From NCBI GenBank assembly GCA_003336485.1, contig QENH01000201.1:10704-74703 (forward strand): a stretch of DNA of 64,000 nucleotides, in the 5' to 3' direction. Each line of letters begins with the position of its first letter. The stretch's first letter is position 1. This document shows positions 32,617-61,072 of the stretch, in pieces. The stretch is from Candidatus Methanophagales archaeon. Its GTDB lineage: Archaea; Halobacteriota; Syntropharchaeia; Alkanophagales; Methanospirareceae. The translations under genes were made by a program, and so were the position numbers. The notes under the pieces are model-generated. The model had not been told where the DNA came from, did no database searches, and saw nothing but the letters and a program-made list of their open reading frames with translations.

Positions 32617-32760
32617 TTTCTTTTCTTCCTTTTTACCACCTATATTTTTATCTTCTGATGTGCTGTTGCCGCATCATGCGTGCAATATCCTACTCTAACA
32701 GCAACAACTTCATTACTGCTTTTTTCATGAATACATTGTTTATTCCCCGCCTCTTTTTCT

Positions 32761-35472: not shown

Positions 35473-35552
35473 ATCACCATATATTCTTTTGTTTTTTTTT
35501 CAGCAACTTCATGGATTTGCACCATGCAAGTGACATCGTTTTTCTTTTTTTT

Positions 35553-35590
35553 CTAAAAAATAACGCCGGGGCGAATGAACTCACCCCAAC
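35553..35590 (-). terminator. hairpin + oligo-T terminator-like element downstream of gene D
   Basis: On the - strand: GGGGTGAGTTCATTCGCCCC then GGCGTTATTTTTT; homologous to the element at 37501-37541. Confidence 0.5.
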
Positions 35591-35630
35591 TCTTTTTGCA
35601 CTTTGTTTTATATTTCACTTCATTGGCTGT

Positions 35631-44412: not shown

Positions 44413-47400
44413 GTGGACGCTATGAAGTCAAATAAGAAATTCACATTTTTAGAGATATTGGTCATAACTTTTTTGGTTATGTGTGTGGTTCCGGTTTGCG
44501 GGTTAAATGATTCTTCAGCTGATATTTCCGCTTATCCAAGTATTGTTAACCCGGGCGATGAAATCAGAGTGACGTTTTCTGGTGTGCCTGGCTTTGAATT
44601 GGACTGGATTGCCATGTATAAGGTTGGTGACCCGAATGAAGGGGAATATGAAGGTGCAGGGTTTTACTTAGAAGGAGAAAAAAGCGGTACGCTAAGCTTC
44701 ACTGCGCCCGATGAGCCAGGCGATTATGACTTTCGGCTCTTTGAAGACGATGGCTATACCGATATTGCCCGAAGTAATATTGTTACGGTGCAAGGGGGGA
44801 CACTGCAAACTTCCGAAGAGGCAACAATTCTTTTTGATGAGAATTTCGATGATGGCTATGCTCCGGGGTTTGGCAATGAAGTTGGAAATTGGGAAGTACA
44901 TCTTTTATACCCGTACACTGGCAAATATACCGCTACGACAGATACCTATAGGTTTTCTATGGCCGGCGACACGAACTGGCAAGATTACGTCATAGAGGCG
45001 GACTTCTTCAATGCGCAGGATGGTGGCTTGCTCGTGCGGGCACAGGATCAAGACAACTGTATCGCTTTGATTGTTCGCCCAAGCTACAACGACATATACT
45101 GGTATGTTAGAAAGGGCGGTATGTGGGCCGATTATAAGGGGCAAGTGACCTTAGGTCATGAGCCTGGAGAAGAGCTACAGGTGAAAGTCAAAGTAGCAGG
45201 CAGCGAGTTTAAAGCTTACGTAAATGATGTACTGAAAACTACATTGGAAAACGCAGAGTTCCCCAAGGGAAAGATAGGTCTCTATCTTTACTACCAACCA
45301 GACCAATACTGGGATAATGTAGTTGTATACAGCAGCGGTGCAACAGGTCCAGCACCCACGCCAACTACACCCACAGAAGGAGGTCTTGTTGGATACTGGA
45401 ATTTCAACGAAGGCAGCGGGAATATAGCTTATGATAGTTCCGGAAGTGGAAATGATGGAACTATTCATGGTGCTACTTTTGTCTCAGGGATCAGTGGTCA
45501 TGCATTGAGTTTTGATGGAAAGGGCAATTATGTTTCTGTGCCGGTGGATATAAATCCAACGGTGATGCCGCAGATGACCATAACCGCCTGGGTTCGAGCC
45601 GATAATGATTCAGGTACCATTGTTTCCCATGACGATGGGGGATTTGATCGCACCATAGATATAGATACACGTGGAGGAGGTAAAGGCTGGTCCGCCTTTA
45701 GTGGTTCAGGGGTTGTAGGATACTCTCCTGTCACAATAGGGGAATGGTTTTTTTTAGCAGCAGTTTACGACCAGAGCGCGGAGACAGTAAAACTATATGT
45801 AAATGGTGCCTTGATAAGCGAAGAAAAAGGCAAGCTCGGATCTGGCTGGGATTATATTAATATTGGGAAGAATCCATCCTTCGGTGATTATTTTTCGGGC
45901 ACGGTTGACGAGGTCATGATCTACAATTATGACCTTACGGAAAGTGAAGTTAAATCCATTTATGTGGGCGGTGAAGCTCCAGAAGAGGAAGAGAGCGGGT
46001 ACGGCGACATAAAGGTCACATATATATCCTGGGAAGAAGTTCAAGAAAAGTACACAGTATCCTATGATGAAACGTTTAAATATGACGACGATGGAGATGG
46101 AGCCAATGAGGCGACATTATATTATAAAGGGGAAAATAATTTGGTCATGTCATCTGATGACACAGATAAAGATGGAAAAGTGGATTTGATATTTCACTAT
46201 GACGATGAGGGATACTTAACTCGTGCAATCCGGGATACAGACGGTGACGGCGAATTTGATCAAATCCTTCATTTCAATAGAGATGAAGAAATTATCAAGG
46301 TGGAAAAAATAAGGTCAGATGATACAAGGAATTCTATTTTATTTATAATTCTCAGCAGTATAATATTTTTCCTTGTAATGTGTTTTTGGCTTTATGTTAC
46401 AAAGAAGCAATCTTGTAATTCAAAAATGAATGATTTGAATTATATGGGAAGAATAAACCACCAACTAGGAAGGAGATTAATTTTAATTTTAATTTCATTT
46501 CTGATTATTTTTGCTTTATTTGTACCTCCTGTTAGCTCGCTGGAAGATGTTATAGATGACGACTGCAATATAATTCAGGATGTTTTTGATAGGGACTGGA
46601 AAAAATACTCTAACTTAGAGAACACGCCGCCGTACACCTTTGAAGAATATCCACTCACGGCGAGAAGCTGGGAAACGCAACAATACTACGCCGCACAATC
46701 AAAAATAGTTGATGCCGAAGTTCAGATATTTTTCCTGAAAAGAGATATGGAAATTGATCGCCATATACGTCTTGAATTGAAAGAATATGAAGAAGCACTT
46801 AAGGATGGGCACAGGAAAAATTTATTGAAGAGTTTCGCTAGATTGTCATTCCTTACAGTTCAGACGGTGTATGAGGCATACGGGGCGGGTAAATCCGTTG
46901 GCAAGTCCTATGTTAATCTGTTCACCACTCCGAGTTCTGTTTCGGCGGCAGGATCAGTGCTCAAAATCACAGATACTTACAACTCTATGGCTCCGCCGGA
47001 TTCATCCGCGCTTGCTAAGAATACACAAAGCATAACCAAATCGGTTGATGCTGTAAGTAAGAATGTAGCTCATGAAGCGTTGGAAAGTCTTGGAGATCCA
47101 ACGAAAGTTGGCACTGAATTGGTTAAGCAGGTGATTGACGCAGTACCAGTACCCCACAAGGCCAAAGACTGGAAGTTGACTGACGACGACTTTAACATTC
47201 TAAGGGAAGAGCATCTCGAGATGAAGGGAATTGGTAAGATAATAGCGAAGAGTTATGAAGTGAACTTAGAAAGGAAAGATAAAGTCAGGGAATTGGAAGC
47301 CCAGATTAAAGAATTGGAAAAAGAACTCGCTGAATGGGAGACAAAGGAGAAGAACAGGGTAAAGGCCTTATTAGTGTATCGTTGCAAGAACGAGAAAAAG

Positions 47401-47832
47401 GAAAAATGCGATTCCGAGCATCTAAGTTTGTGCGATAATGAAAATGATTGTGAAGATGCTGGCGGTTACTGGTATAATAATAATTGTAATGATGAACCTG
47501 AAGAAATAAAAAAAGGAAAAATTGCAATTACCGCTTGCACGACCAGTTGTATTGTGCTTCAGACAGTAAAACTCACTGTAATGGGTATACCAGACGATCA
47601 AATAAGGGTTTGCGCTTCACCTTTAAGTTCACATGTAAAATTCCAAGCGGGTGTAGATGACACACCATACGATGTAACGGATTGTATCATTGACGTGATT
47701 GATGAAGACGGTATCAGGAGGTATGAAGTTAAATTTGACGATTCCGGAACCTTTACAATAAGGGTAACTGTCATAAGTGGTCCTCGTGCATATGACTCGG
47801 ACTCCGTGGAAATATCGGTTTCAAGAGAATAG
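44413..47832 (+). CDS. giant surface protein: DUF1080/LamG-like lectin domains + internal TM hairpin + Cys-rich coiled-coil C-terminal half (possible in-frame fusion of two genes)
   Basis: 1139-aa uninterrupted ORF. N-terminal signal/TM, ConA-like/LamG jelly-roll (GLVGYWNFNEGSG...GTVDEVMIYNYDLTESEV). A TM segment followed by KKQSCNSK, then a second signal-peptide-like segment (MNDLNYMGRINHQLGRRLILILISFLIIFALFVPPVSS) at ~46425. Coding GC drops after ~46300. Confidence 0.55.
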   Translation: MDAMKSNKKFTFLEILVITFLVMCVVPVCGLNDSSADISAYPSIVNPGDEIRVTFSGVPGFELDWIAMYKVGDPNEGEYEGAGFYLEGEKSGTLSFTAPDEPGDYDFRLFEDDGYTDIARSNIVTVQGGTLQTSEEATILFDENFDDGYAPGFGNEVGNWEVHLLYPYTGKYTATTDTYRFSMAGDTNWQDYVIEADFFNAQDGGLLVRAQDQDNCIALIVRPSYNDIYWYVRKGGMWADYKGQVTLGHEPGEELQVKVKVAGSEFKAYVNDVLKTTLENAEFPKGKIGLYLYYQPDQYWDNVVVYSSGATGPAPTPTTPTEGGLVGYWNFNEGSGNIAYDSSGSGNDGTIHGATFVSGISGHALSFDGKGNYVSVPVDINPTVMPQMTITAWVRADNDSGTIVSHDDGGFDRTIDIDTRGGGKGWSAFSGSGVVGYSPVTIGEWFFLAAVYDQSAETVKLYVNGALISEEKGKLGSGWDYINIGKNPSFGDYFSGTVDEVMIYNYDLTESEVKSIYVGGEAPEEEESGYGDIKVTYISWEEVQEKYTVSYDETFKYDDDGDGANEATLYYKGENNLVMSSDDTDKDGKVDLIFHYDDEGYLTRAIRDTDGDGEFDQILHFNRDEEIIKVEKIRSDDTRNSILFIILSSIIFFLVMCFWLYVTKKQSCNSKMNDLNYMGRINHQLGRRLILILISFLIIFALFVPPVSSLEDVIDDDCNIIQDVFDRDWKKYSNLENTPPYTFEEYPLTARSWETQQYYAAQSKIVDAEVQIFFLKRDMEIDRHIRLELKEYEEALKDGHRKNLLKSFARLSFLTVQTVYEAYGAGKSVGKSYVNLFTTPSSVSAAGSVLKITDTYNSMAPPDSSALAKNTQSITKSVDAVSKNVAHEALESLGDPTKVGTELVKQVIDAVPVPHKAKDWKLTDDDFNILREEHLEMKGIGKIIAKSYEVNLERKDKVRELEAQIKELEKELAEWETKEKNRVKALLVYRCKNEKKEKCDSEHLSLCDNENDCEDAGGYWYNNNCNDEPEEIKKGKIAITACTTSCIVLQTVKLTVMGIPDDQIRVCASPLSSHVKFQAGVDDTPYDVTDCIIDVIDEDGIRRYEVKFDDSGTFTIRVTVISGPRAYDSDSVEISVSRE

Positions 47833-47843
47833 GAAGAGGTCTT

Positions 47844-47875
47844 TCCAGACTGCCCACCTTGTTGTGGGGTCTGGA
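47844..47875 (+). terminator. perfect nested hairpin TCCAGACTGCCCAC-cttgtt-GTGGGGTCTGGA just after the giant ORF stop
   Basis: 12+ bp GC-rich stem starting 12 nt after the stop at 47832. No immediate T-run; the nearest (T8) is ~45 nt downstream. Confidence 0.3.
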
Positions 47876-48130
47876 CTTAAACTTGATGAAGGGGGTCGTT
47901 CTTGGATAGATGGCAGGGATTTTTTTTAGTTTGTACATATTCCGGCCGCATCATGATTATTTAGCACACGAAAATTGGACAGATAAAGGTTCGAATTCGC
48001 TCAACGGTGAGAATAGACGCAAGTGGTGATAACGTAAAAGTTTACAACATCGAGAGGCGGTCCAACAATCCAAAATTGCAAGAAAAAGAAAGGCAAATAG
48101 GGCTTTAAATCCAAAAAAGTAAAATTTTTA

Positions 48131-49018
48131 GTGCCAAACGCAATTACGGGACAGCCTCTCGAAGGCTCACCCGATATAAAAAAGGTGAAAGGAGAAGAGG
48201 TAACATTGGCGAGAGATGGTTACCATATCAGAGAACGGTTCTCTCAGCAAAGTTCAGTCTTTCGATCCAGAAAAAGTTTTAAATGAGTTCTTTGATACGA
48301 TTCCCAGCACTACGGATGTTACCAGGCTTAACCTTCGAATGTTTTAGAAGCAACAGAAGTTACAAAAGGCGATTTGACAACTGATTCACTATTTGAGTAC
48401 AATATAATGGCTGGAACGATAATGATAAGCCTGGCAGATGCGGAAGAATTTAGTGGCAATGGCTCTATTGCTTACGTCACATTCAATGTGATTGGTGCTG
48501 CAGATTCAACCTCACCTCTTCAGATTGTTGCACTTGCAGCGAACCGAGCTGAAGATTACGAAGTTCTGACGATTCCTACCAATGATGGTGTGTTTAGAGT
48601 TATATTTATAAGCACGGAGGAAAGTGGAAGTTTGACCGTCCGCATGAGCAACACAACAGGAGCAAACGGAAGTACAGTAGAAGTGCCGATCAACCTTGAA
48701 GGCACCACAGAAATCGGAAGTAGGGACATCGTTTTGAATTATGATGCCGATGTCTTAAGTGCAGTGGATGTCAACGCCGGCGCACTTGGTAAAAACGCGC
48801 TAATCGAAGCGAATACCGCGCGAGAAGGAGAAGTTATAATCGCTCTGGCGGACTCGTCAGGAATAAATGGCGATGGTGCAGTTGCAAGTGTCGCCTTGGA
48901 GGTGATAGGCGATGCCGGCACAACGAGCTATCTAACGTTGGATGAGGTTTTGGTGCATAACCTCGATCTGGGAGAGATAATACCAACTACAGTGAACGGA
49001 ACGTTTGAGGTTATTTGA
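48131..49018 (+). pseudogene. frameshifted tandem-cohesin gene remnant
   Basis: ORF 48374-49018 holds one complete cohesin-like module (VEVPINLEGTTEIGSRDIVLNYDADVLSAV...) and the C-terminal half of another. The missing N-terminal half is recognisable upstream in two other frames (VPNAITGQPLEGSPDI; QSFDPEKVLNEF) with an in-frame TAA at 48327. Confidence 0.55.
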
Positions 49019-49196: not shown

Positions 49197-49685
49197 TTAA
49201 TTGCGTGATTCTATAAAATTCTTGATTTGTTCTCCCTCTTTCTCCACATCAAACGCATTTATTCCAATGCTTCTGGCAACTTTTGCCAGTTTCCTGTCCG
49301 CAGTCAGAAATAGCACACAATTGCGGTCTTTACTTGAAACCATTTGAATAGCATCCGCTTCATACACATGGTATTCCAAGATTAATTTTATTGCATCCGC
49401 TATAATGTTTGTATACAGAGGCACTACATCCAAATATCGAAGCGTGGCAAGTTTCGTAAATTCATTTGTGTATTTACCTACTGCCCCTTTTAACTCACCC
49501 TCGCTCATCAATTTCCTTCGTTTATACCTATCAAATATACCCAAAACCTCTCCTACGTTCCAGATAGAAAAGAATAGTTTTATACGACCCGTTTCTGCAT
49601 CTTCAAACACTAAATCCATTATCTCTGTCCCTGCTTCCTTTATATACCGCTTAACTATTGCACTGCTATCAAGATAGACCAACAC
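49197..49685 (-). CDS. PIN-domain toxin (VapC-like)
   Basis: 162 aa; acidic PIN residues in YLDSSAIV, EAD and FLTADRKL. Confidence 0.7.
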   Translation of the reverse strand: MLVYLDSSAIVKRYIKEAGTEIMDLVFEDAETGRIKLFFSIWNVGEVLGIFDRYKRRKLMSEGELKGAVGKYTNEFTKLATLRYLDVVPLYTNIIADAIKLILEYHVYEADAIQMVSSKDRNCVLFLTADRKLAKVARSIGINAFDVEKEGEQIKNFIESRN

Positions 49686-49947
49686 GATTATCCCTCATTT
49701 CTCTAAGAACTTTGCCTGCAGAACTTTTTGATTCCGGTCTCTCTTTTTTTACATCTTCTAATGAAATAACGCCATAGGTTTCCAAAAGATATTCCAAACA
49801 CTCTATCACAGCATCATTAGCCAAATAAGAAGCTATAAGAAGTTCTATTTCCTTGTTTAGCCTTTTGGTCGTACCATACTTCTTTAATATCTCCCCCTCA
49901 AAACTCTTCCATATCCTCTCATCTATATCCACAACCACTTCGCCCAT
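49669..49947 (-). CDS. putative antitoxin partner of the PIN toxin
   Basis: 92-aa ORF immediately upstream, overlapping the PIN gene start by 17 nt (typical TA arrangement); fold not assignable. Confidence 0.45.
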   Translation of the reverse strand: MGEVVVDIDERIWKSFEGEILKKYGTTKRLNKEIELLIASYLANDAVIECLEYLLETYGVISLEDVKKERPESKSSAGKVLREMRDNRVGLS

Positions 49948-50076: not shown

Positions 50077-51000
50077 TCAAACTCTCAACCCCCGCTCAAA
50101 CATGCGCCCAATTATCCTTTCCGTAACGTCAATCCCGCACGTGACTTTTATACCTTTTCCTGATGGTGTTGCATTGACCTCAAGCACAAACAATCCTTCG
50201 TCGCCTTCTATCAAGTCAACGCCCGCGAAATCCGCACCTACTGTCTTTGTCGCATTTACTGCCAGTGCTCGCATCTCCTCTGTTAGGTCACACATAAGTG
50301 GTGTACCGCCCTGACTCAAGTTACTAATAAACGACCCAGCCTGCGAAATCCGGTAGATGGCACCTAATGCCTCTTCGCCAACTACAAATACTCTTATGTC
50401 GCGTCCATGATTAGGCACAAACTGCTGCAAATAAAGCACACCCCGTTCTTTCAGTAGCGTTGCGAGTTTCTGCTTCAGGTCAGGCTGAGAAGCTTCCAGT
50501 TTGAAGATCCCTTTGCCCTGACTGCCGAAGATAGGTTTTGCGACTACAATTTCGAATTCTTCGATTGCTTTCATAGCAACCCCTAAATCAGAAGTGACTA
50601 CCGTGCGTGGAATGGGCAGGTGTGCCTGTTTGAAAAGGTAAAAGGAGAAGAACTTGTTTGCTGCATTCTGGATTGCGTTGGGCGAGTTCATAACCGGTAT
50701 ATTCGCTGTTTCAAACAGCCGGAGCAGGTCGAACTTAAAAGAAATCTGTTCCAGAGAGGAGCTGATGCCAACGTCTCTGACAATGATAGCATCGAGTTCC
50801 AATAAATCGTTTAAATCTGTACTGAAGATAGAAAAATCGGAAGTTGAGACGGAAACGCTTAATGTAGAGAGGTTAATTGGTAAGGCGTTCGCGCCTCTTT
50901 TGCGAATGCTCGTCAAGAAGGCGTTCGCAGTCCAGTCGTCCGGGTCGGTTAGGACAACAGCTATTTTTGCGGCTTTAGTGTTTTGGTTTTGGTTGTGCAT
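50077..51000 (-). CDS. RimK-family ATP-grasp alpha-L-glutamate ligase (MptN/CofF-like)
   Basis: 307 aa; ATP-grasp motifs (VVAKPIFGSQGKGI, LYLQQFV, FAGVDLIEGDEGLFVLEVNATPS). Confidence 0.7.
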   Translation of the reverse strand: MHNQNQNTKAAKIAVVLTDPDDWTANAFLTSIRKRGANALPINLSTLSVSVSTSDFSIFSTDLNDLLELDAIIVRDVGISSSLEQISFKFDLLRLFETANIPVMNSPNAIQNAANKFFSFYLFKQAHLPIPRTVVTSDLGVAMKAIEEFEIVVAKPIFGSQGKGIFKLEASQPDLKQKLATLLKERGVLYLQQFVPNHGRDIRVFVVGEEALGAIYRISQAGSFISNLSQGGTPLMCDLTEEMRALAVNATKTVGADFAGVDLIEGDEGLFVLEVNATPSGKGIKVTCGIDVTERIIGRMFERGLRV

Positions 51001-51089
51001 TTTGAGTTTTAGGATTCGTTTTTTAAAATCTCAATCCTCGCCATGCCTGTGATAAATTGCAACATATCCGTTGGTGTGTGCATTATGGT

Positions 51090-53855
51090 TTATTTTTCCA
51101 TTTCTAAGCCATTTAACCAACTAAGCATATTCTCGATAAGCTGCTTAGATTTGCTATTCTTTATTTCAGATTTTTTAAGGCAATCAATGACCTCTTTAAA
51201 ATTCAAATGAGAATTAATGAATGAGATTGTATTTTCTTCATCGATTGCTTTAAAACCTTTTAAAGCCAAGGCAACTTTAAAGGGTTCTGGTTTATGAGGG
51301 TTAATATTTTTTTTAAACCACTCTTCTATTTCAGGTATTGAAATTTTAATTCCAGAAATTTTTTCACCATTCGCGTCTAAAAGAGAACAATTAGCATATT
51401 CATAAATTCCGATAAGGCATAACTTTTCTCCAATATTTTCCTCAATGTAAATGTTTAGCTTTCCATCCTCCTTCCTGACAAGATAAGTACTTTTCTTTTT
51501 TTTAATACCCTCGGATTTAAATTTCTTCTTCAATTTGAACAGATTAAACCAACCCGAAGTGGTATCTACACTAAATAGACGCTTATCATTTAAACAATTT
51601 ACTATTACATTTCTCACCTTAGTATCTGTGAAAGTTTTTGGAACACTCGAACTTGTTTGAAATAAATTCCAAAGAAAACGATTGATGGTATTTAAATCAG
51701 ACATTTCTATCTTTTCCACCAAATCATGATCCTCAATTATCTTATTGTATTTAACAGATAATGATTGATCCGCTGAAATGTTCCATACAAAATAATTTAA
51801 TTTGATTAGAGGGGATTCCTCTACCTTACCTGCTAAGTCAAATCCTTCGATTAAATGTTCCGCATCATTTCTCTTGAGACCTACAATAAGAAGGCCTATA
51901 TAATCCAGTGTGCTCTCCTCCATTTTTTTAATTAAATCAAATGGTGGACTGAGTTTGTCTATTATAAATTTTGGATCGCCACCAACTTCATTTATGTTCT
52001 GTATCAGAAGGGATATATTTTTTAATGTTGCCTCCCCTAATTTTTGAGGCAGATTATCAACTTCTTTTAATTTCTCAATAGCATCTAATGCTAACTCAGC
52101 TCCCTTTAATACATTTTTTTTGAATTTTACTTGCCTAATTCCATAAATAAATACTCCAATTTCACCTAAAGTAGCATCATTCATTTTTCTAAGTAGAAAA
52201 GATTCTCTAGAGAATCTTTGATATACATTTTGAACATTTATTGAATAATAGCCTTTCGATAGAAAAGAACCAAGTTGATTTATTTTTGAATTATTCAAAA
52301 ACTCAAGAAGGTCTTCCTCACTAAAATATTCTAAGAATTCTTTTGAGAATGTTCTATTTGAAACATAGCTACGGGTATCTTTCAGTCTCTTTACATTTTT
52401 AACCTCCATCGATTCAACAATATTTTCAAAAATAGCTTTTTTTGTATCATCATCTTTCAATAGTTCGCTAACGATATCTTCCTTGGTAATACTTTCTTTA
52501 TACTCATTTGCCAATCGAGACAACAAACCAACACAGACTTTCGGCTTTGATCGAAAATAGAGATGAAAAAGTCCAATGTACCAATCACCGAACTTTTTCT
52601 GAATAGTCTCTTTAACGTTTTCACCCAGTTCTTTATACTCTTTAAACGTCTCAAGATAGAGTTTCGCTCGTGAAGAATGATGCAGCGAGAGCTTCCAATT
52701 CTTTTCTCGGATTTCTCCAAAATGTATCAATTCTCTAATGTTTTCTTCCTTTAGTCCAAGAGTTTTGGTGAGTGTCCTCATCGCAACCGGGGCTTCGTAA
52801 CAATAGAATGCAGATATTGGTAAAATTATATCATCTGCGTGTATCCACTTATAATCGTCCACCGTAAGAAGTTCTTTAATCTTTTTAATAAGTTCTTTTT
52901 CAGTAGGAATGCTACATTCTGGGTCATAGAGACTCAAAGCTAAAGATAGCACCCATAAATCGTGTCCATATTGCTCTCGCAACTCCCTTCTATTTTCTTC
53001 CTCAATTTTTATATTGCTTTTATTCTCAAAATTTATAAGAATATCTTCAACTGCATCAATTGCATTGATTTTGGTGCAAGTCTTTTTATCTTGCATCAGG
53101 AATGCTAATGGAGTTGTAGTGAGTGGTTCAATTTTTTCTTCGATTATATCACGGCCAGAAAGTAAAATCTTTATTTTTGGCTTGCCTATTCCCCCTAGCA
53201 ACTCATTACATTTTAGTTTATTGTATTCAGTAAGACCTAGATGAATATCATCAATGATTAATAATGTCTTCTTTTTCTTCATTTTTGAAATTTTTTCAAT
53301 AATGTCATTTATATCCAATTCCTCAGTTTTTAATTCTTTGACAAAGACTTCGTATTTTTTCTTCCGTAGCTCGTAACCTATATTTTTGATGATAAGACTT
53401 TTTCCCGATGAAGGAGACCCAATAATCAAATGTACTCTGTTCTTTTCCAGTTTGGCTACCACCTCATCAACTTCTCTTCTTTTTGTGATATATCCCTTTT
53501 CGAAATCAATCCAGTAAGGATCTTTTCTTTCTTTTAAAAACTTATCAAAAGGAGTGTCTTTTATCTCATCTCTTTTTAGGACCCAATCAATCGTTGGCAA
53601 ATTTATTTTTTCACGTTTTATATGTGAATATATCCATTTAATTATCGGGATTATTATTTTAATAATTGCAAGTAGTACTCCAAGGATTGCAATTGCTGCC
53701 AGCAGTGATGGTCGTTCAGCAATCTCATTTAAAATAATGCTAATTCTCGGTAATTGCACCAAAAAATGGCGAAAATATACAAATATCCAAATTCCAACGA
53801 GCGATATAGCCAAGAAAAGTAGTCCGTATTTTAAAATTTTTCGCATCTTTACCAT
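51090..53855 (-). CDS. membrane-anchored STAND-like P-loop NTPase with large C-terminal helical domain
   Basis: 921 aa; two N-terminal TM helices, Walker A LIIGSPSSGKSL, Walker B LLIIDDIH, ILLSGRD, then ~650 aa Lys/Ile/Asn-rich helical region. Coding GC ~30%, far below neighbours. Confidence 0.6.
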   Translation of the reverse strand: MVKMRKILKYGLLFLAISLVGIWIFVYFRHFLVQLPRISIILNEIAERPSLLAAIAILGVLLAIIKIIIPIIKWIYSHIKREKINLPTIDWVLKRDEIKDTPFDKFLKERKDPYWIDFEKGYITKRREVDEVVAKLEKNRVHLIIGSPSSGKSLIIKNIGYELRKKKYEVFVKELKTEELDINDIIEKISKMKKKKTLLIIDDIHLGLTEYNKLKCNELLGGIGKPKIKILLSGRDIIEEKIEPLTTTPLAFLMQDKKTCTKINAIDAVEDILINFENKSNIKIEEENRRELREQYGHDLWVLSLALSLYDPECSIPTEKELIKKIKELLTVDDYKWIHADDIILPISAFYCYEAPVAMRTLTKTLGLKEENIRELIHFGEIREKNWKLSLHHSSRAKLYLETFKEYKELGENVKETIQKKFGDWYIGLFHLYFRSKPKVCVGLLSRLANEYKESITKEDIVSELLKDDDTKKAIFENIVESMEVKNVKRLKDTRSYVSNRTFSKEFLEYFSEEDLLEFLNNSKINQLGSFLSKGYYSINVQNVYQRFSRESFLLRKMNDATLGEIGVFIYGIRQVKFKKNVLKGAELALDAIEKLKEVDNLPQKLGEATLKNISLLIQNINEVGGDPKFIIDKLSPPFDLIKKMEESTLDYIGLLIVGLKRNDAEHLIEGFDLAGKVEESPLIKLNYFVWNISADQSLSVKYNKIIEDHDLVEKIEMSDLNTINRFLWNLFQTSSSVPKTFTDTKVRNVIVNCLNDKRLFSVDTTSGWFNLFKLKKKFKSEGIKKKKSTYLVRKEDGKLNIYIEENIGEKLCLIGIYEYANCSLLDANGEKISGIKISIPEIEEWFKKNINPHKPEPFKVALALKGFKAIDEENTISFINSHLNFKEVIDCLKKSEIKNSKSKQLIENMLSWLNGLEMEK

Positions 53856-54148
53856 ATCCTCCTTCTATTCAAATAGAATTTAATCGGTGATAGGTAAGTC
53901 GTTAGATATAAAGTCACATCCCCCACATTTAAGCCAAAACCCTTCAAGATTTCGCTTTTCTTGCTCATGTTCGCTATTATAAAAGATGCAATGAAGACTT
54001 ATAAATATTTGCACTCATATAAACATTTTTATTCTTTCCCATCCGCGCTTGATGCAAGCGCTACATTTCTCATAAAGCTACAAATAATGAGCAAAAAGAG
54101 TGTCCCCTCCATTTTTTACTTCAAAATACATTTAAAGCATTAACTTAA

Positions 54149-55057
54149 TTATTGCAATTGACTCTGTGCTTCTTCTAAATTTGATTTAACGATTTGATAC
54201 TGTATCTGATATTTCTCCTCGGTATGAATTTTTAAAGCTTCTTGGTAGGCTTTGATAGCTTTTTCAAGATTTGTTTCCTTATCCCTCACCTCTGCCAAAT
54301 CTCCGTATGCGAGTCCAAGGTTATTCTGGGTCTTTGCATAGTCTATTGGATAACGTTCAACAGTGCGAGTATTCAGGGCTTCTTGGTAGGCTTTGATAGC
54401 TTTCTCAAGATTTGTTTCCTTATCTCTCACCTCTGCCAAATCTCCGTATGCGAGTCCAAGGTTATTCTGGGTCTTTGCATAGTCTATTGGGTAACTTTCA
54501 ATAGTACTGATCTTCAGGGCTTCCTGGAAGGTATAGATAGCTTTCTCAAGATTTGTTTCCTTATCTCTCACCTTTGCCAAACCCATGTATGCGAGTCCAA
54601 GGTTATTTTGGGTCATTGCATAGTCTAGTGGATAACGTTCAATAGTACGGATCTTCAGGGCTTCCTGGTAGGCTTTGATAGCTTTTTCAAGATTTGTTTC
54701 CTTATCTCTCACCTCTGCCAAAATTGTGTATGCACACCCAAGGTTATTCTGGGTTCTTGCGTATTCATCGGAGAATTTTTTGGATGAAACTATCTTGAGA
54801 ATGCCTCCGTATTCTTTAATTGCTTCTTCAAACGAACCCGCTTTTTGTAAAGAATCTGCTTTCCGAAGGGATGAATCTATTTGACTCTTTAAGCTTTCCC
54901 TCTCACCATAGTCCTGGTATGCCATATACCCCAAAGCAAGAATTGCAGCAATCGCTCCGACAATGGTAACAATTTTTATAACTTTAGCAACGAAACCACC
55001 CTCGGAATCTTGCTTTCTTCTGCTTCGAACTGTCCTCGTCTTCTTTCTCACTTTCAA
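54149..55057 (-). CDS. membrane-anchored TPR-repeat protein
   Basis: 302 aa; N-terminal basic segment + TM helix, then five ~47-aa near-identical units (NLEKAIKAYQEALKI.T.ERYP.DYA.TQNNLGLAY.LAEVRDKET). Confidence 0.7.
   Translation of the reverse strand: MKVRKKTRTVRSRRKQDSEGGFVAKVIKIVTIVGAIAAILALGYMAYQDYGERESLKSQIDSSLRKADSLQKAGSFEEAIKEYGGILKIVSSKKFSDEYARTQNNLGCAYTILAEVRDKETNLEKAIKAYQEALKIRTIERYPLDYAMTQNNLGLAYMGLAKVRDKETNLEKAIYTFQEALKISTIESYPIDYAKTQNNLGLAYGDLAEVRDKETNLEKAIKAYQEALNTRTVERYPIDYAKTQNNLGLAYGDLAEVRDKETNLEKAIKAYQEALKIHTEEKYQIQYQIVKSNLEEAQSQLQ
54230..54800. repeat. ~141-bp near-perfect tandem repeats (x4-5) inside the TPR gene
   Basis: Recurring cttggtaggctttgatagctttttcaagatttgtttccttatc...gagtccaaggttattctgggtctttgcatagtctattgg units with a few substitutions. 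Confidence 0.8.
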
Positions 55058-55187
55058 TCCCCTCTTGATATAATTATTGGGATATAATCAAACCGTCTTA
55101 TCTTTGCGAAAGTGTTGAGAATATCTGTGTCAAAAGCTAAACCCATCACTTCTGCTACTATATATTTTTGCAAGCAAAAAGGTTTAA

Positions 55188-55330
55188 GACATTTTGTTTA
55201 CAAAATACTTGGAGGCGCCGGTAACAACATTTGCTGTAAAAGATCGCGTTCTCGCTCATAACCCGCTTAGCGCGATAGATATATTCCGCGTATCCTCTGA
55301 ACAAATTGGTGGTCAAAAAGCAAGAAAATA
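55188..55330 (+). repeat. orphan ~135-bp copy of the 3' end of the DUF1847-like gene (partner 56212-56346), with a 4-nt insertion
   Basis: tttgtttacaaaatacttggaggcgccggtaacaacatttgctgtaaaagatcgcgttctcgctcataacccgctt... is ~92% identical to the last 45 codons of gene 55759-56346. Confidence 0.8.
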
Positions 55331-55393
55331 AATTATTGACACAGATTAACGCAGATTAACGCAGAAGAAATTAAATCAGTGTAAAAGAGAGTT

Positions 55394-55750
55394 TTGATGG
55401 ACGACAGGGCACTAAGAGCCACAGTGGGGCTATCCGCATCAGAATTTAATCAACTGGCGCAGGGTTTTGGTCCAGAAATAGAAAAAAATATACTCATCAT
55501 CGATATAAATAGATGGATTGGTTATTTGAGCCCTCCAGAAGAAGGTAAAAAGCACGATTGTGGTATGTTCAAAGGCCTATTTCCGCCGGAGATATTCCCA
55601 AAAGGCATAACGCTATGGCTAGAGCATGCTATCGGCGGAATTAAGCGAATGCGAATAACAACTGACAAGTTTCGCAACAAGTCTATTTATTACTACTATA
55701 ATTATAATTGCAGATGTTGTAGCAACAAAATTATCATGAGGGATATATAA
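55394..55750 (+). CDS. hypothetical protein
   Basis: 118-aa ORF between the orphan repeat and the DUF1847-like gene; no motif recognised. Confidence 0.3.
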   Translation: MMDDRALRATVGLSASEFNQLAQGFGPEIEKNILIIDINRWIGYLSPPEEGKKHDCGMFKGLFPPEIFPKGITLWLEHAIGGIKRMRITTDKFRNKSIYYYYNYNCRCCSNKIIMRDI

Positions 55751-55758
55751 GATATATT

Positions 55759-56346
55759 ATGAATTGCGCAAGTTGCAAAGAGAAAACGTGCTATAAAGGC
55801 AAGGACTGCACTAAAATTGCAGAAGATGTCAAAAAGGCATACAAAGGCGATGCCCTCAACTCGCTTAGAGTCGCTACACGTATAGAATCACGGTATTACA
55901 TGAAGAAAAACCGTATAGAGGAGTTGATTTTATATGCGAAAGAGATGGGCTACAAGAGATTAGGCGTTGCCTTCTGCATAGGCATGCAAAAAGAGGCGGA
56001 AATATTATGTGATCTTCTATTGCAATACTTCGATGTGTCTTCGGTCTGTTGCAAGGTATGTGGGATTGATAAATCCTACTTCGAGCTGGACCGTCTTCAC
56101 AAGGATGCAGAAGAAGAGGCGATATGCAATCCAATAGGGCAAGCAATGATTTTAAACAATGAAAAGACTGACTTGAACATCATTCTGGGATTGTGTATCG
56201 GACACGACACTTTGTTTACAAAATACTCGGAGGCGCCGGTAACAACACTTGCTGTAAAAGATCGCGTTCTCGCTCATAACCCGCTTGGCGCGATATATTC
56301 CGCGTATCATCTGAACAAATTGACGGTCAAAACGGAAAAACTTTAA
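55759..56346 (+). CDS. Cys-rich metal-binding protein, DUF1847-like
   Basis: 195 aa; N-terminal CASCKEKTCYKGKDC cluster; resembles a methanogen/clostridial DUF1847 family by recollection only. Confidence 0.4.
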   Translation: MNCASCKEKTCYKGKDCTKIAEDVKKAYKGDALNSLRVATRIESRYYMKKNRIEELILYAKEMGYKRLGVAFCIGMQKEAEILCDLLLQYFDVSSVCCKVCGIDKSYFELDRLHKDAEEEAICNPIGQAMILNNEKTDLNIILGLCIGHDTLFTKYSEAPVTTLAVKDRVLAHNPLGAIYSAYHLNKLTVKTEKL

Positions 56347-56383
56347 TGGCTCCAATGCTTTTTAAACGATATGAGGTGATAAA

Positions 56384-57983: not shown

Positions 57984-58955
57984 ATGGGTAAGAGAAGAGA
58001 ACTTTTAATACGGCTAGTACTAATAGTAGTTGTTATCGGTTGTTTGACTCATACTTCCTGGGGACAGGAGAATTACCCAGTCAATGTTTCCCATCCATCG
58101 CCAGCAAAGAGTGATTTTAGTCAAGAAGATATCCTAAACCAAGCGCAGAGAAGTTTTGATAGGTCCATAGACCTATTCAATACAGTTGCTACCGTGATGG
58201 GGCTGCTGGTGGCATTAATAACCCTAATAGTTGCAATAGGAGGCATTTTGGGATATTTCAAAAGTCGTCAATTGGAAAAATATACAGAGCAAGCTAAGAA
58301 AAGTGCCGATCAATTAAAAGGATATGAAGACGATGCAGAGAAAATTGTCGACAAATTAGAGGAATTTGAAAGCAAAATTGATGAAATCAACGAAAAGGTG
58401 CTAGTTGTCGGTGAAGATAAGTTACCCGAGATTGAAGAAGAGCTAGACGGATTAAGAGAGACAGCCAGGGATTTCCCACCCCTTTCAGAACCCTTCTCAG
58501 AATACCAAAAAAGGATATCAAATGAATATGGGAAGAAAATAGAATTCCTTGAGGCTTTTGGAGTTCCATTGAAGCCTGAGGATTACCTTAGTCGTGGCAG
58601 TGACTTTTATCGGAGCAAAGAATATGGAGAAGCACTAAAAGCCTATAATAAGGCAATAGAGTTAAAGCATGATTATGATGCTGCATGGAACAACAGAGGA
58701 TTAGCGCTTGCCAAACTCTATCAGTACGATGAAGCACTAAAAGCCTATGATAAGGCAATAGAGTTAAAGCATGATTATGCTACTGCATGGTACAACAAGG
58801 CTTGTGCGTATTCCCGAAAAGACGATAAAGAAAACGCTCTTAAAATTTTGTCTGAAGCAATAGATTTAGATGCAAAATATAAAGAAAAAGCAAAAAGAGA
58901 CAAGGCTTTTATAAATTACTGGAATGATGATGATTTCAAAAGGGTTGTGAGTTAA
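57984..58955 (+). CDS. membrane-anchored coiled-coil + TPR-repeat protein
   Basis: 323 aa; N-terminal TM, internal TM, coiled-coil, then TPR units (AYNKAIELKHDYDAAWNNRGLALAKLYQYDEALKAYDKAIELKHDYATAWYNKA). Confidence 0.65.
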   Translation: MGKRRELLIRLVLIVVVIGCLTHTSWGQENYPVNVSHPSPAKSDFSQEDILNQAQRSFDRSIDLFNTVATVMGLLVALITLIVAIGGILGYFKSRQLEKYTEQAKKSADQLKGYEDDAEKIVDKLEEFESKIDEINEKVLVVGEDKLPEIEEELDGLRETARDFPPLSEPFSEYQKRISNEYGKKIEFLEAFGVPLKPEDYLSRGSDFYRSKEYGEALKAYNKAIELKHDYDAAWNNRGLALAKLYQYDEALKAYDKAIELKHDYATAWYNKACAYSRKDDKENALKILSEAIDLDAKYKEKAKRDKAFINYWNDDDFKRVVS

Positions 58956-60526: not shown

Positions 60527-61072
60527 TTATGGTGTCAGTGAATTCCGAGATAGGTTAAAATCCAGCAGATCTCCATAATAGGACTTGAATCTTTCAACAA
60601 TTTCAATATATTTGTTTAAATCGTTTTCATTCCGCTTACCTATATCTTTCTCACTCCTCAATTTAGATATTTCTGTAGGGGCTTTCACCACAAAGTAAGG
60701 TTTAATTTCTTTATAATATTTTGAAAATATCTCTTGCAATGTCTCTCCAGAAAAGCTCTTCATTTCGTCCTGAACTTTATCCCTAAAATATATTGAAAGG
60801 TAGTCTAATAAGTTATAAGCCGCTCTGTAAAGATGTCTATAAGCGGGTATAAGGTTTTCAATTGCATATTTAGCGTCTGCCTGCTTAAAACCTAATTTGA
60901 ATGCGAATACCCACATAAGATGATCAAAAGCATGCCTGAGTTCTTCTGTTGCCGGACTGAAACTTTCACCTCCTACATCCTCAGCATAAATCATTATGTC
61001 TTTGCTTATGCTATACTGCGTAATAATATCCTTAAAAAGCTTCTCTTCTTCTTCATCAAATTCTATTTGCAT
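60527..61072 (-). CDS. hypothetical protein with HEPN-like R-x4-H motif
   Basis: 181 aa; all-helical prediction; EELRHAFDHL contains R-x4-H; last gene of an overlapping AT-rich three-gene module. Confidence 0.3.
   Translation of the reverse strand: MQIEFDEEEEKLFKDIITQYSISKDIMIYAEDVGGESFSPATEELRHAFDHLMWVFAFKLGFKQADAKYAIENLIPAYRHLYRAAYNLLDYLSIYFRDKVQDEMKSFSGETLQEIFSKYYKEIKPYFVVKAPTEISKLRSEKDIGKRNENDLNKYIEIVERFKSYYGDLLDFNLSRNSLTP

What the first reader, a model, noticed from the sequence alone, without database searches (positions are those of the whole stretch)
51070..55057. AT-rich island encoding a membrane-anchored STAND-like P-loop NTPase (921 aa) and a TPR protein: candidate defence/signal-transduction module
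GC drops to ~30% across 51090-53855. The encoded protein combines two N-terminal TM helices, a Walker A/B NTPase of STAND/NACHT flavour and a ~650-aa helical sensor-like region. This architecture is typical of antiviral STAND (Avs-like) and other conflict-system ATPases. The island sits next to a VapBC TA pair and a TM-anchored TPR protein. The compositional break argues for horizontal acquisition.
Basis: partly seen in the sequence, partly recalled or inferred. Interest (0 to 1): 0.6.

Follow-up and report, generated by a model that had tools for sequence, protein, structure and literature searches.

The report
Membrane-anchored STAND immune sensor in ANME-1
An AT-rich gene in a methane-oxidising archaeon (ANME-1) encodes a membrane-anchored, NLR-like STAND ATPase, most likely a single-protein antiviral sensor-killer; it sits in a gene-swapping hotspot and has recently been exchanged in pieces between lineages, while the neighbouring TPR gene is not its conserved partner.

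Summary
ORF 51090-53855(-) encodes 921 aa with two N-terminal TM helices, Walker A/B motifs, a NOD and a helical repeat sensor. It is the most AT-rich stretch in the window (31.7% vs 42.4% GC).

The NTPase passes Pfam thresholds for nSTAND_NTPase5 and nSTAND3 (the Avs5 domain). Its best fold matches are SAMD9, Avs4, EfAvs5 and NLRs. It does not match NACHT, NB-ARC, KAP or PADLOC's Avs models. Relatives carry HEPN, HD, CHAT, PNP, SIR2, TIR-like or Mrr domains where this protein has its TM hairpin.

The gene occupies a hotspot upstream of mptN. That slot is empty in six Methanophagales species and holds TIR, type I R-M or unknown AT-rich cargo in others. The TM/NOD half is 3-5 times less diverged at synonymous sites than the adjacent mptN. 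The sensor segment is 96% identical to a gene elsewhere. This indicates recent modular horizontal exchange.

TPR302 (40% GC) occurs without the STAND gene, and the STAND gene occurs without it.

Most likely an Avs-like abortive-infection sensor whose oligomerisation clusters TM hairpins to damage the membrane (inferred). Verdict: a new member of a known kind.

The parts
51090..53855 (-). STAND NTPase gene (921 aa; probably 918 aa from M4 at 53846). It is identical to NCBI 'hypothetical protein C5S53_17690 [Methanophagales archaeon]'.
53619..53855 (-). aa 1-79: N-terminal two-TM hairpin (TM1 10-28, TM2 51-69) with a conserved loop motif (N/D)EIAE(R/Q)P. It sits where relatives carry an effector domain. 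Predicted topology is N-in/C-in by the positive-inside rule (inference).
52677..53618 (-). aa 80-393: conserved core. It comprises the LPxID/WIDFEKGY pre-NBD segment, the NBD (Walker A G146-K152-S153, Walker B D202/D203, H205, R235), HD1, and a WHD ending in the near-invariant LHHSS (H393, in an MHD-like position).
52416..52676 (-). aa 394-480: conserved helical domain (HD2) with the lowest dN/dS of any domain (0.10-0.21). The recombination breakpoint region lies at about aa 400-440.
51588..52415 (-). aa 481-756: variable sensor, with about six family-specific helical repeats (aa 513-756; motif K-h-x-E-[AS]-[TP]-L-x-x-[IL]-x-x-[FL]-[IV]). It is 96% nt-identical (dS 0.048) to P0008, a gene in a different genomic context.
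51438..51587 (-). aa 757-806: 50-aa beta-hairpin insertion found only in this protein among its close homologues (lower pLDDT). It contains the motif KEDGKLNIY.
51093..51437 (-). aa 807-921: C-terminal helical bundle, 62-65% identical to all close homologues, which indicates a third evolutionary history.
53856..54148 (-). Upstream spacer. It holds GGAGG at 53858-53862, a TATA-like CTTTATATC at 53905-53913, and a conserved leader/promoter element at about 53905-54020 (with GTGCAAATATTTATAA at 53999-54014). The same element precedes unrelated cargo genes at this hotspot in other genomes.
51001..51089 (-). STAND-to-mptN spacer. It is 86-88% conserved in all STAND-positive loci and absent from STAND-negative loci.
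50077..51000 (-). mptN (tetrahydromethanopterin:alpha-L-glutamate ligase), the core gene that forms the right flank of the hotspot. It is not part of the system.
54149..55057 (-). TPR302: a single-TM protein with TPR_12/TPR_10 repeats and three internal 141-nt tandem units. It lies in the variable block but is an independent occupant and not a conserved partner.
51004..55124 (.). Whole 4.1-kb block (TPR302 + leader + STAND) that is absent from the nearest STAND-negative relatives (L006, L009, L010, L011). The breakpoints were read from the sequences.

Best explanation
The gene encodes a single-polypeptide, NLR-like immune sensor of the STAND superfamily. It belongs to Pfam family nSTAND_NTPase5, and its NOD is closest in fold to SAMD9, Avs5 and Avs4. 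It is carried as exchangeable cargo in a defence hotspot upstream of mptN in ANME-1 archaea. Proposed mechanism: the protein sits in the cytoplasmic membrane through an N-in/C-in two-helix hairpin, with the NOD and the C-terminal repeat sensor in the cytoplasm. In the resting state the NOD is locked. The sensor repeats bind a protein from a virus or another mobile element. This releases the NOD, which binds ATP and oligomerises. Oligomerisation brings the pre-inserted TM hairpins together, and they perturb or perforate the membrane. The infected cell then dies or goes dormant before the invader spreads (abortive infection). Shown here: the STAND identity and intact catalytic motifs; effector-domain swapping at the N-terminus across the family; the hotspot and defence-island context; and modular recombination with recent horizontal exchange. 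Inferred: the ligand, the oligomerisation, and the TM hairpin acting as the killing device.
For: STAND identity:
- Pfam nSTAND_NTPase5 (E 4e-11) and nSTAND3 (E 1.5e-8), both above gathering cut-offs; 51 of 52 family representatives hit nSTAND5.
- The AF2 models are confident (pLDDT 88 for the full protein, 90 for the NOD).
- Foldseek top hits are EfAvs5, Avs4, NLRPs and a wheat resistosome for the full protein, and SAMD9, Avs4, EfAvs5 and NOD2 for the NOD alone.
- Walker A/B, R235 and H393 are near-invariant.

Conflict-system signature:
- Relatives carry HD-CE+HEPN_Swt1, CHAT, PNP_UDP_1, DUF4062, Schlafen AlbA_2, Trypsin_2 and Mrr_cat domains; those positioned (HD-CE+HEPN_Swt1, CHAT, PNP_UDP_1) lie N-terminal to the same NOD.
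- The same sensor repeat occurs on a SIR2-nSTAND protein.
- PADLOC recognises those effector domains as defence effectors.
- About 25-30 of 151 representatives have 2-TM or 4-TM N-termini in the effector position, in at least two unrelated hairpin types.
- The hairpin is as conserved as the NBD (82-97% identity).

Genomic context:
- The slot upstream of mptN is empty in six species. Elsewhere it holds DUF4760+TIR(ThsB-like), type I R-M+AAA_13/PDC-S06, a nucleoside deoxyribosyltransferase, DUF2254 or unknown AT-rich genes.
- Other 2-TM relatives lie beside GmrSD, DUF87 and Dnd-associated genes, a MORC-like ATPase, or an integrase fragment plus an AAA_15 ATPase.

Evolution typical of an immune receptor:
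- Against P0002, dS is 0.00 in the TM hairpin and 0.12 in the NOD, but 0.68 in the sensor.
- Against P0008, dS is 0.8-1.3 in TM/NOD but 0.048 in the sensor.
- mptN dS between the same genome pairs is 0.39-0.81.

Literature:
- Avs proteins are tripartite effector-NTPase-sensor proteins activated by oligomerisation, and some STAND effectors are pore-forming membrane proteins (PMC13001434; PMC13276650).
- Avs5 carries the nSTAND3 domain.
- Carrying a defence-related effector domain and lying close to known defence genes are the two criteria used to call STAND clades defence-associated (PMC13581612).
Against: - There is no experimental evidence for any member of this family.
- PADLOC has no model that recognises the NOD, and the query itself has no significant defence hit.
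- No solved structure is related at sequence level beyond the P-loop.
- Foldseek TM-scores are modest (0.36-0.43 for the NOD), and generic AAA+ proteins (RuvB, Orc1/Cdc6) follow closely.
- A two-helix hairpin could be only an anchor; no pore-lining polar pattern was demonstrated.
- No virus or trigger is known, and no relatives were found on viral contigs, phages or plasmids.
- dN/dS values are all below 1, so positive selection on the sensor is not demonstrated. The 0.93 value against P0008 rests on few substitutions.
- NG86 estimates are approximate for AT-rich genes.
Confidence: 0.6

Rival explanations
1. It is a membrane-tethered STAND sensor whose TM hairpin is only a localisation device. 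The protein surveys events at the membrane, such as virus entry, assembly or egress, possibly through the conserved external loop NEIAERP. It then signals to a separate effector or acts through its NTPase or scaffold, not by damaging the membrane itself.
For: The loop between the TM helices carries a conserved charged motif across Methanophagales and Altiarchaeales homologues. Two helices per protomer make a minimal pore-forming unit. Kibby et al. suggest that some bacterial NACHT proteins with TM regions recognise intra-membrane or periplasmic signals. Tmn, another membrane P-loop defence protein, acts by ion export and not by lysis.
Against: No conserved partner gene exists: the neighbours differ between loci (TPR302, Cupin, hemA/hemB, others). 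The hairpin occupies exactly the position where relatives carry enzymatic killing domains. The large cytoplasmic repeat array is the usual STAND sensor.
Confidence: 0.2
2. One reading: STAND and the adjacent TM-anchored TPR protein form one two-gene defence or signalling module, with TPR302 as a detached sensor or adaptor.
For: The two genes are adjacent, on the same strand, and both membrane-anchored. TPR302 weakly matches the Pfam TPR-S 'sensor' family (33.2 bits against 27.6). The arrangement TPR302-STAND-mptN recurs in a second strain (L041, 98% nt identity across the junction). One distant homologue (P0011) has TPR repeats fused at its C-terminus. Both genes are missing from the nearest relatives (L006, L009-L011).
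Against: The TPR302 orthologue sits 48 bp from mptN with no STAND gene in L015. STAND genes in L033 and L034-36 have a Cupin gene upstream, and other homologues have unrelated neighbours. GC is 0.403 for TPR302 against 0.317 for STAND. A separate leader with a TATA box and an RBS lies between the two genes. With a strongly basic N-terminus before its single TM, TPR302's repeats are predicted to face outside the cell, whereas the STAND sensor is cytoplasmic (inference). P0011's TPR resembles TPR302 only generically (30% identity, E 3e-7).
Confidence: 0.07
3. It is a non-immune signal-transduction STAND, a membrane-associated regulator or scaffold of a host process. Its AT-richness would then reflect only its Lys/Ile/Asn-rich repeat composition.
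For: Many STAND clades are not defence-related (198 of 589 were called defence-associated in PMC13581612). Some family members carry HTH or FtsZ_C domains. The gene lies next to a cofactor-biosynthesis gene in several lineages.
Against: It has no DNA-binding or output domain. It is absent from 23 of 23 informative species representatives at this locus and from most ANME-1 genomes. GC3, not only amino-acid composition, is extreme. The family shows effector-domain swapping and defence-island contexts. There is recent horizontal exchange relative to mptN.
Confidence: 0.08
4. It is a selfish or decaying xenogeneic gene with no current function for the host.
For: It is AT-rich, patchily distributed and located in a recombination hotspot next to an IS remnant and a gene-fragment scar.
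Against: The 921-codon ORF is intact, with all catalytic motifs, an RBS and a promoter-like element. dN/dS is 0.1-0.6 in the NOD and HD2. The AF2 model is confident. Intact orthologues occur in several lineages.
Confidence: 0.05

Closest known systems
Avs5 / AVAST type 5 (e.g. EfAvs5, PDB 9JAP; SIR2-NOD-sensor)
   Same: Both have an effector-NOD-helical-repeat-sensor layout. Avs5's NTPase is Pfam nSTAND3, which this protein also matches. EfAvs5 is the top full-length Foldseek hit and the third-ranked NOD hit. A relative with the same sensor repeat carries SIR2 (P0131).
   Different: Here the SIR2 NADase is replaced by a two-TM hairpin. The best Pfam family is nSTAND5, not nSTAND3. PADLOC gives no AVAST hit, and there is no sequence-level match to 9JAP. 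The host is an archaeon. The trigger and the assembly mode (filament or ring) are unknown.
Human SAMD9 (PDB 9ZJS) and animal NLRs (NOD2, NLRP3/9)
   Same: SAMD9 gives the best fold match for the NOD (E 3e-8, TMq 0.43). SAMD9 is an animal antiviral restriction factor whose sensor clusters with the Avs5 sensor (PMC13581612).
   Different: Sequence identity is only 12-15%. The N- and C-terminal domains are unrelated. The similarity is at fold level only.
Plant CC-NLR resistosomes (ZAR1; wheat G10 resistosome, PDB 9H2L)
   Same: In both, the proposed logic is that NOD oligomerisation brings N-terminal helices together to form a membrane-perturbing assembly. That CNLs form cation channels with the alpha-1 helix in the membrane is stated in PMC11467418. 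9H2L is among the top hits.
   Different: Plant CNLs are soluble and insert into the membrane only after activation. This protein has classical hydrophobic TM helices that should be inserted constitutively. There is no CC-domain homology. The analogy has not been tested.
TM effectors of CBASS, Pycsar and type II Thoeris (N-terminal TM helices plus a cytoplasmic ligand-binding domain)
   Same: Both have N-terminal TM helices fused to a cytoplasmic domain whose activation is thought to disrupt the membrane (CBASS and type II Thoeris: PMC13276650; Pycsar: own knowledge).
   Different: Those proteins are triggered by nucleotide second messengers made by a separate enzyme. Here the sensor and the switch are in the same STAND polypeptide.
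Tmn (YobI family) and KAP NTPases (PifA)
   Same: [quoted passage not shown]
   Different: In YobI proteins the two TM helices are inserted inside the P-loop domain, and KAP proteins have four TM helices elsewhere. Here the hairpin (aa 10-69) precedes the Walker A motif (aa 146). No KAP Pfam hit was found.

Membership tests
STAND NTPase superfamily | P-loop NTPase with Walker A GxxxxGK[ST] and Walker B hhhhD[DE] | tested here: met
   GSPSSGKS at 146-153 and LLIIDD at 198-203. G146, G151, K152 and D203 are invariant or near-invariant in the family alignments.
STAND NTPase superfamily | Match to a curated STAND family profile above its threshold | tested here: met
   PF25199 nSTAND_NTPase5 scores 43.3 bits (cut-off 34) and PF20720 nSTAND3 scores 34.9 bits (cut-off 27.2).
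STAND NTPase superfamily | NBD-HD1-WHD (NOD) fold resembling solved STANDs more than other AAA+ proteins | tested here: inconclusive
STAND NTPase superfamily | Conserved histidine at the end of the WHD (MHD-like nucleotide sensor) | tested here: met
   H393, in LHHSS directly after the WHD beta-hairpin, is invariant or near-invariant. Contact with the nucleotide was not testable.
STAND NTPase superfamily | Nucleotide-dependent oligomerisation switch | not testable with these tools
   This requires biochemistry or cryo-EM.
Antiviral STAND (Avs) in the broad sense | Tripartite N-terminal effector / NTPase / C-terminal repeat sensor | tested here: met
   The layout is a TM hairpin (1-79), a NOD (80-393, with HD2 to 480) and helical repeats (481-921). 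That the hairpin is an effector is inferred.
Antiviral STAND (Avs) in the broad sense | Clade members carry immune effector domains (a criterion of PMC13581612) | tested here: met
   DUF4062 (6 members), PNP_UDP_1, HD-CE, HEPN_Swt1, CHAT, SLFN_AlbA_2, Trypsin_2, Mrr_cat and SIR2_2.
Antiviral STAND (Avs) in the broad sense | Genomic proximity to known defence genes | tested here: met
   The same hotspot holds TIR/ThsB-like genes and type I R-M plus PDC-S06 in other genomes. Homologues lie beside GmrSD, DUF87, Dnd-associated genes, a MORC-like ATPase and an AAA_15 ATPase. In the window itself only a VapBC-like pair is nearby. The sample is small and was not tested statistically.
Antiviral STAND (Avs) in the broad sense | Demonstrated protection against viruses and a known trigger | not testable with these tools
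Avs1-Avs5 as modelled in PADLOC-DB v2 | Significant match to an AVAST HMM | tested here: not met
   The query's best hits are mad8 (E 1e-3, P-loop only) and PDC-M54A (E 0.02). Eight relatives hit only through their effector domains.
NACHT / NB-ARC (AP-ATPase) clades | Match to PF05729 or PF00931 | tested here: not met
   Neither family was reported at E <= 0.1.
KAP and YobI (Tmn) membrane P-loop NTPases | TM helices inserted within or after the P-loop domain; KAP_NTPase profile match | tested here: not met
   The TM helices at aa 10-69 precede Walker A at aa 146. No KAP hit was found. The family definitions come from PMC13001434.
Two-gene STAND+TPR module | Conserved co-occurrence of the two genes | tested here: not met
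   L015 has TPR302 without STAND. L033 and L034-36 have STAND without TPR302. Only the window and its close relative L041 have both.

The most novel reading that the evidence does not exclude
This would be a self-contained archaeal 'resistosome'. Ligand-triggered NOD oligomerisation of the protein would assemble its pre-inserted two-helix hairpins into an ion-conducting channel or membrane lesion. That would be an archaeal functional counterpart of plant CC-NLR channels, built from constitutively membrane-embedded protomers, and it would operate in the multicellular consortia of methane-oxidising ANME-1. A further possibility is that the conserved external loop (NEIAERP) adds outside-in sensing.
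Probability: 0.25. Interest if true: 0.7.

Novelty: new member of a known kind. Interest (0 to 1): 0.4.

Why it matters
ANME-1 archaea control marine methane release, cannot be cultured, and have a large but poorly understood virome. This locus gives three things:
- A concrete, intact candidate for an NLR-like immune receptor with a membrane effector in Archaea.
- A well-delimited hotspot, between the conserved 256-aa gene and mptN, whose unknown AT-rich cargo genes (for example the 576-aa, 499-aa and 574-aa proteins) are candidates for new archaeal defence systems.
- A clean natural example of modular sensor/NOD swapping, with synonymous-site evidence that a sensor cassette moved between genes at different loci.

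None of this overturns current ideas. It extends the Avs paradigm to a new host group and a new effector type.

Tried and rejected
- **Leader as RNA or att site.** I tested the ~115-nt conserved leader upstream of the STAND gene as a possible non-coding RNA or attachment site. It has no Rfam match. RNAalifold gives -2.2 kcal/mol with no covarying pairs. It is single-copy in the window. The one metagenome scan found only one more copy, with the same cargo as L026. I read it as a resident promoter/leader.
- **Target-site duplications or terminal inverted repeats.** None were found around the insert.
- **Virus-, phage- or plasmid-borne relatives.** None were found in IMG/VR patterns, INPHARED or PLSDB. 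BFVD gave only generic STAND/AAA+ folds.
- **Sequence-level link to solved structures.** Only P-loop or coiled-coil noise was found.
- **Supplementary tables of PMC13581612.** They are not held, so the clade number and defence score could not be looked up.
- **KAP, YobI, NACHT and NB-ARC membership.** Rejected.
- **TPR302 as a partner.** Rejected on synteny, composition and predicted topology.
- **Taxon names for distant relatives.** Mostly unavailable.
- **orf118 as a transposase.** No Pfam hit; the resemblance to an IS remnant rests on reading the sequence only.

Full report
**1. Observation**

The ORF at 51090-53855(-) is real: ATG start, 921 aa. It is the most AT-rich 2.77-kb stretch of the window. 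Its GC is 0.317 against a mean of 0.4235 (sd 0.029); the lowest non-overlapping window is 0.385. Its GC3 of 0.275 is the lowest of 42 ORFs.

Hydropathy gives two TM segments, at aa 10-28 and 51-69. Walker A is GSPSSGKS at 146 and Walker B is LLIIDD at 198.

Homologues begin at MRKILKYG, so the real start is probably M4 (53846), 11 nt downstream of a GGAGG.

- a PIN gene with an overlapping small upstream ORF, on the far side of mptN;
- a single-TM TPR protein (TPR_12/TPR_10) at 54149-55057(-).

The GC dip stops at the STAND upstream spacer. The TPR gene is 0.403 GC.

The exact protein is on record as a hypothetical protein of a Methanophagales (ANME-1) archaeon. The flanking gene is mptN, which fits a methanogen-type host.

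**2. What the protein is**

*Profile searches.* Pfam places aa 112-237 in nSTAND_NTPase5 (43.3 bits, cut-off 34) and aa 127-214 in nSTAND3 (34.9 bits, cut-off 27.2). No NACHT, NB-ARC or KAP profile is reported. PADLOC and NCBIfam give nothing beyond P-loop noise.

*Structure.* AlphaFold2 with a 59-sequence alignment gives a confident model (pLDDT 88.2, pTM 0.77). Its parts are:

| Residues | Feature |
|---|---|
| 2-33, 49-79 | two long N-terminal helices |
| 127-264 | five-stranded P-loop NBD |
| 265-318 | helical domain HD1 |
| 319-393 | winged helix ending in LHHSS |
| 394-756 | alpha-solenoid |
| 757-806 | small, lower-confidence beta insert |
| 807-921 | C-terminal helical bundle |

*Fold searches.* Foldseek against the PDB with the full model ranks EfAvs5 (9JAP), Avs4 (8DGF), NLRP2/9/3/7 and a wheat resistosome first, ahead of RuvB and ORC. 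A NOD-only model (pLDDT 90, pTM 0.88) ranks human SAMD9, then Avs4, EfAvs5, the wheat resistosome and NOD2. RuvB and Orc1/Cdc6 are interleaved with these from rank 6 on. TM-scores are 0.32-0.43 for the STANDs and 0.30-0.36 for the AAA+ proteins. Fold evidence therefore favours an immune-type STAND, but by a modest margin. The profile HMM hits are the firmer evidence.

*Other links.* A family profile finds no solved relative by sequence. Avs5 proteins carry the nSTAND3 domain (bioRxiv 2025.07.08.663546), and the Avs5 sensor clusters with SAMD9 (PMC13581612).

**3. The family**

The word-indexed search found only 13 relatives. The exhaustive search of 1.84 billion cluster representatives found 324 at E<=1e-3 and 59 at E<=1e-30.

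The conserved part is aa ~80-480. It contains LPxID, WIDFEKGY, the Walker motifs, H205, R235, DLW..L.W.L and LHHSS. The N- and C-termini vary.

Of 52 representatives, 51 hit nSTAND5. Collectively they carry:
- DUF4062 (six members), PNP_UDP_1, HD-CE, HEPN_Swt1, CHAT, Schlafen AlbA_2, Trypsin_2 and Mrr_cat;
- where I looked (HD-CE+HEPN_Swt1, CHAT, PNP_UDP_1), these domains lie N-terminal to the NOD.

PADLOC recognises those domains as defence effectors but has no model for the NOD.

About 25-30 of 151 representatives have two or four TM helices in that same N-terminal position. There are at least two unrelated hairpin types.

The C-terminal repeat also occurs on related nSTAND scaffolds with SIR2 (the Avs5 architecture), HTH or double-AAA N-termini.

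Named hosts include Methanophagales, Altiarchaeales and a Candidatus Aerophobetes bacterium. This is the effector-swapping signature that PMC13581612 uses as one of its two criteria for a defence-associated STAND clade.

**4. The locus is a hotspot**

I fetched 26 mptN loci from GTDB species representatives and mapped window proteins onto them.

*Empty state.* A conserved 256-aa gene (p256) directly abuts mptN in six species, including the deepest branches (L018, L020, L023, L024, L025, L027). This is the likely ancestral state.

*Filled state.* Elsewhere the slot holds different AT-rich cargo (GC 0.33-0.38):

| Locus | Cargo |
|---|---|
| L014 | DUF4760 + a ThsB-like TIR protein + a 499-aa unknown |
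| L016 | Cupin + a 299-aa membrane protein + a nucleoside deoxyribosyltransferase |
| L021, L026 | DUF2254 membrane proteins |
| L028 | type I R-M + an AAA_13/PDC-S06 protein |
| L012, L013, L017, L022 | unknown proteins |

*STAND at this slot.* None of the 23 informative species representatives has the STAND gene there. In metagenome contigs, however, STAND followed by mptN recurs in L041, L032, L033 and L034-36. They share an 86-88% conserved 89-bp spacer that no STAND-negative locus has.

*Other contexts.* Other homologues sit elsewhere:
- between hemA and hemB (L001);
- next to an integrase fragment and an AAA_15 ATPase in an Altiarchaeales contig (L004);
- beside GmrSD, DUF87 and a Dnd-associated gene (L039);
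- beside a MORC-like ATPase and a pentapeptide protein (L037).

In the contigs where I measured it, the STAND gene is 0.29-0.32 GC. Where the flanks are 0.40-0.45 GC this is a clear dip; the Altiarchaeales contig L004 has AT-rich flanks too (0.33).

**5. Boundaries in the window**

Compared with the nearest STAND-negative relatives (L006, L009-L011), a 4.1-kb block of TPR302 + leader + STAND (about 51004-55124) is extra. The sequence that precedes mptN in those genomes is found at 55125-55190 in the window, next to a duplicated 3' end of the DUF1847 gene.

Compared with L015, only the STAND segment is extra. There the TPR302 orthologue (75% identical over its C-terminal 126 aa, with the same C-terminus) ends 48 bp before mptN. 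DNA homology with the window stops at about 54138 and resumes at about 50991.

No target-site duplication or terminal repeat was seen.

**6. Mosaic evolution and horizontal exchange**

Domain-wise identity and Nei-Gojobori estimates:

| Comparison with the window | TM hairpin dS | NOD dS | Sensor (aa 481-756) dS |
|---|---|---|---|
| P0002 (L041, same locus) | 0.00 | 0.12 | 0.68 |
| P0004 (L032) | 0.00 | 0.10 | 0.90 |
| P0008 (L042, different flanks, no mptN) | 0.82 | 1.28 | 0.048 (96% nt identity) |

In all comparisons the last 115 aa are about equally distant (62-65% identity).

The adjacent core gene mptN has dS of 0.39 (L032), 0.54 (L041), 0.91 (L033) and 0.81 (L034) in the same genome pairs. 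The 5' half of the STAND gene is therefore 3-5 times younger than its chromosomal neighbour. In L041 the near-identical tract also includes the leader and the end of TPR302. The sensor segment, in turn, was exchanged with a gene at another locus.

dN/dS is 0.10-0.21 in HD2 and 0.21-0.61 in the NOD, which indicates purifying selection. It is 0.32-0.36 in the sensor for old comparisons and 0.93 for the recent P0008 comparison, but that last value rests on few changes and is not evidence of positive selection. NG86 is approximate for such AT-rich genes, although the contrasts are large.

**7. TPR302**

TPR302 is not a conserved partner. Its composition differs from the STAND gene, the two genes occur independently, and a leader with a TATA box and an RBS lies between them. 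Its very basic N-terminus before the single TM predicts that its repeats face outward, away from the cytoplasmic STAND sensor (inference).

Three observations keep a small probability for a functional link:
- the weak TPR-S match;
- the C-terminal TPR fusion in P0011;
- the shared TPR302-STAND arrangement in L041.

**8. Mechanism**

*Shown:* an intact STAND switch in a membrane protein, a variable repeat sensor, the hairpin in the effector position, and the context and evolutionary behaviour expected of an immune gene.

*From the literature:* Avs proteins sense phage proteins with the C-terminal repeats, oligomerise through the NTPase and activate the N-terminal effector. Some STAND effectors are pore-forming membrane proteins (PMC13001434; PMC13276650). 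EfAvs5 is activated by filament formation triggered by T7 gp1.7 (PMC11897194).

*Inferred here:* ligand binding leads to NOD oligomerisation. That clusters the pre-inserted hairpins, which damages or depolarises the membrane and aborts the infection.

The main alternative is that the hairpin only localises the sensor.

**9. Novelty and verdict**

This is an uncharacterised archaeal member of a recognised kind: an Avs-like STAND in Pfam nSTAND5, with a TM effector variant. It lies outside Avs1-5 as modelled in PADLOC. The concept is not new. The specific family, the host, the defined hotspot and the documented sensor swap are useful but unsurprising. Interest 0.4.

Noticed in passing
window 53905-54020 (-); also L014 6985-7105, L021 7900-8020, L026 135-255, L040 95-215: A ~115-nt non-coding element (TATA-like GTGCAAATATTTATA followed by AATAGCGAACATGAGCAAGAAAAGCGAAATCTTGAAG...) is conserved at ~77% column identity upstream of unrelated cargo genes at the same mptN hotspot: STAND here, DUF4760+TIR in L014, DUF2254 in the others. 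It has no Rfam match and no conserved structure. It is probably a resident promoter/leader downstream of which cargo is swapped.
   Followed up: yes
window 55188-55333 and 56206-56347; orf 55394-55750 (+): The 3' end of the DUF1847 gene is duplicated (95% and 84% identity) upstream of a 118-aa ORF that reads like a heavily deleted IS transposase remnant (..EHAIGGIKRMRITTDKFRN..) but has no Pfam hit. The same scar is present in L010 and, in part, in L011, so it predates the TPR302+STAND block.
   Followed up: partly
window 49197-49947 (-); L010 7210-7721: The VapBC-like pair on the other side of mptN is also variable. ANME-1 AG-394-G06 (L010) has a different small two-gene pair (108 aa + 60 aa) at the same position between mptN and the cohesin-domain gene.
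   Followed up: partly
window 51438-51587 (aa 757-806 of the STAND protein); P0028 aa ~850-885; P0011 aa ~505-530; L016 8404-9303: A small beta-hairpin module with the motif W-x-I-x-D-G-...-Y-x-I-x-K-E-D-x-K-L-N-I-Y is inserted in the sensor of this protein only among its close homologues. It recurs in two distant STAND relatives and in an unrelated 299-aa membrane protein that occupies the same hotspot in L016. Its function is unknown.
   Followed up: partly
P0055 (801 aa, family representative): An nSTAND5 protein carries an FtsZ C-terminal domain (E 2e-29) at its C-terminus, where the sensor usually sits. A second family member also hits FtsZ_C. This could be a decoy or guard of the cell-division machinery; it was not examined.
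   Followed up: no
L012 8218-9948, L013 1296-2804, L017 157-1197; L014 8456-9955; L022 7935-9659: Several AT-rich hotspot cargo proteins (576/502/346 aa, 499 aa, 574 aa) have no Pfam or PADLOC match. Given their position, they are candidates for unknown archaeal defence genes.
   Followed up: partly
window 54197-54760: The TPR302 gene contains three in-register copies of a 141-nt unit (82-86% identical), so its repeat array grew by recent internal tandem duplication.
   Followed up: no
window 25931-37376 and 44413-49018: This is a cluster of very large predicted surface proteins: PKD repeats; NosD/beta-helix+CARDB; papain C1+lectin+beta-helix; an Ig-like protein; a 1139-aa protein; and a cohesin-domain protein. 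The 1139-aa and cohesin genes differ strongly from their L010 counterparts. Only the first 129 aa of the 1139-aa protein are conserved, and the cohesin ORF is 214 aa here against 647 aa in L010. This suggests a second variable, envelope-related region.
   Followed up: partly
window 57984-58955 (+) and 60527-61072 (-): Two more compositionally low-GC3 genes were seen. One is a second TM-anchored TPR protein (GC3 0.327; present but diverged in L010, absent in L006). The other is a 181-aa ORF (GC 0.341, GC3 0.313) that was not examined.
   Followed up: no
L001 3684-6446: In another contig the 53%-identical STAND homologue P0009 (GC 0.29 against flanks of 0.43) is wedged between hemA (GlutR) and hemB (ALAD), with a BrnT/CopG toxin-antitoxin pair nearby. 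This is a second independent insertion site inside a housekeeping operon.
   Followed up: partly
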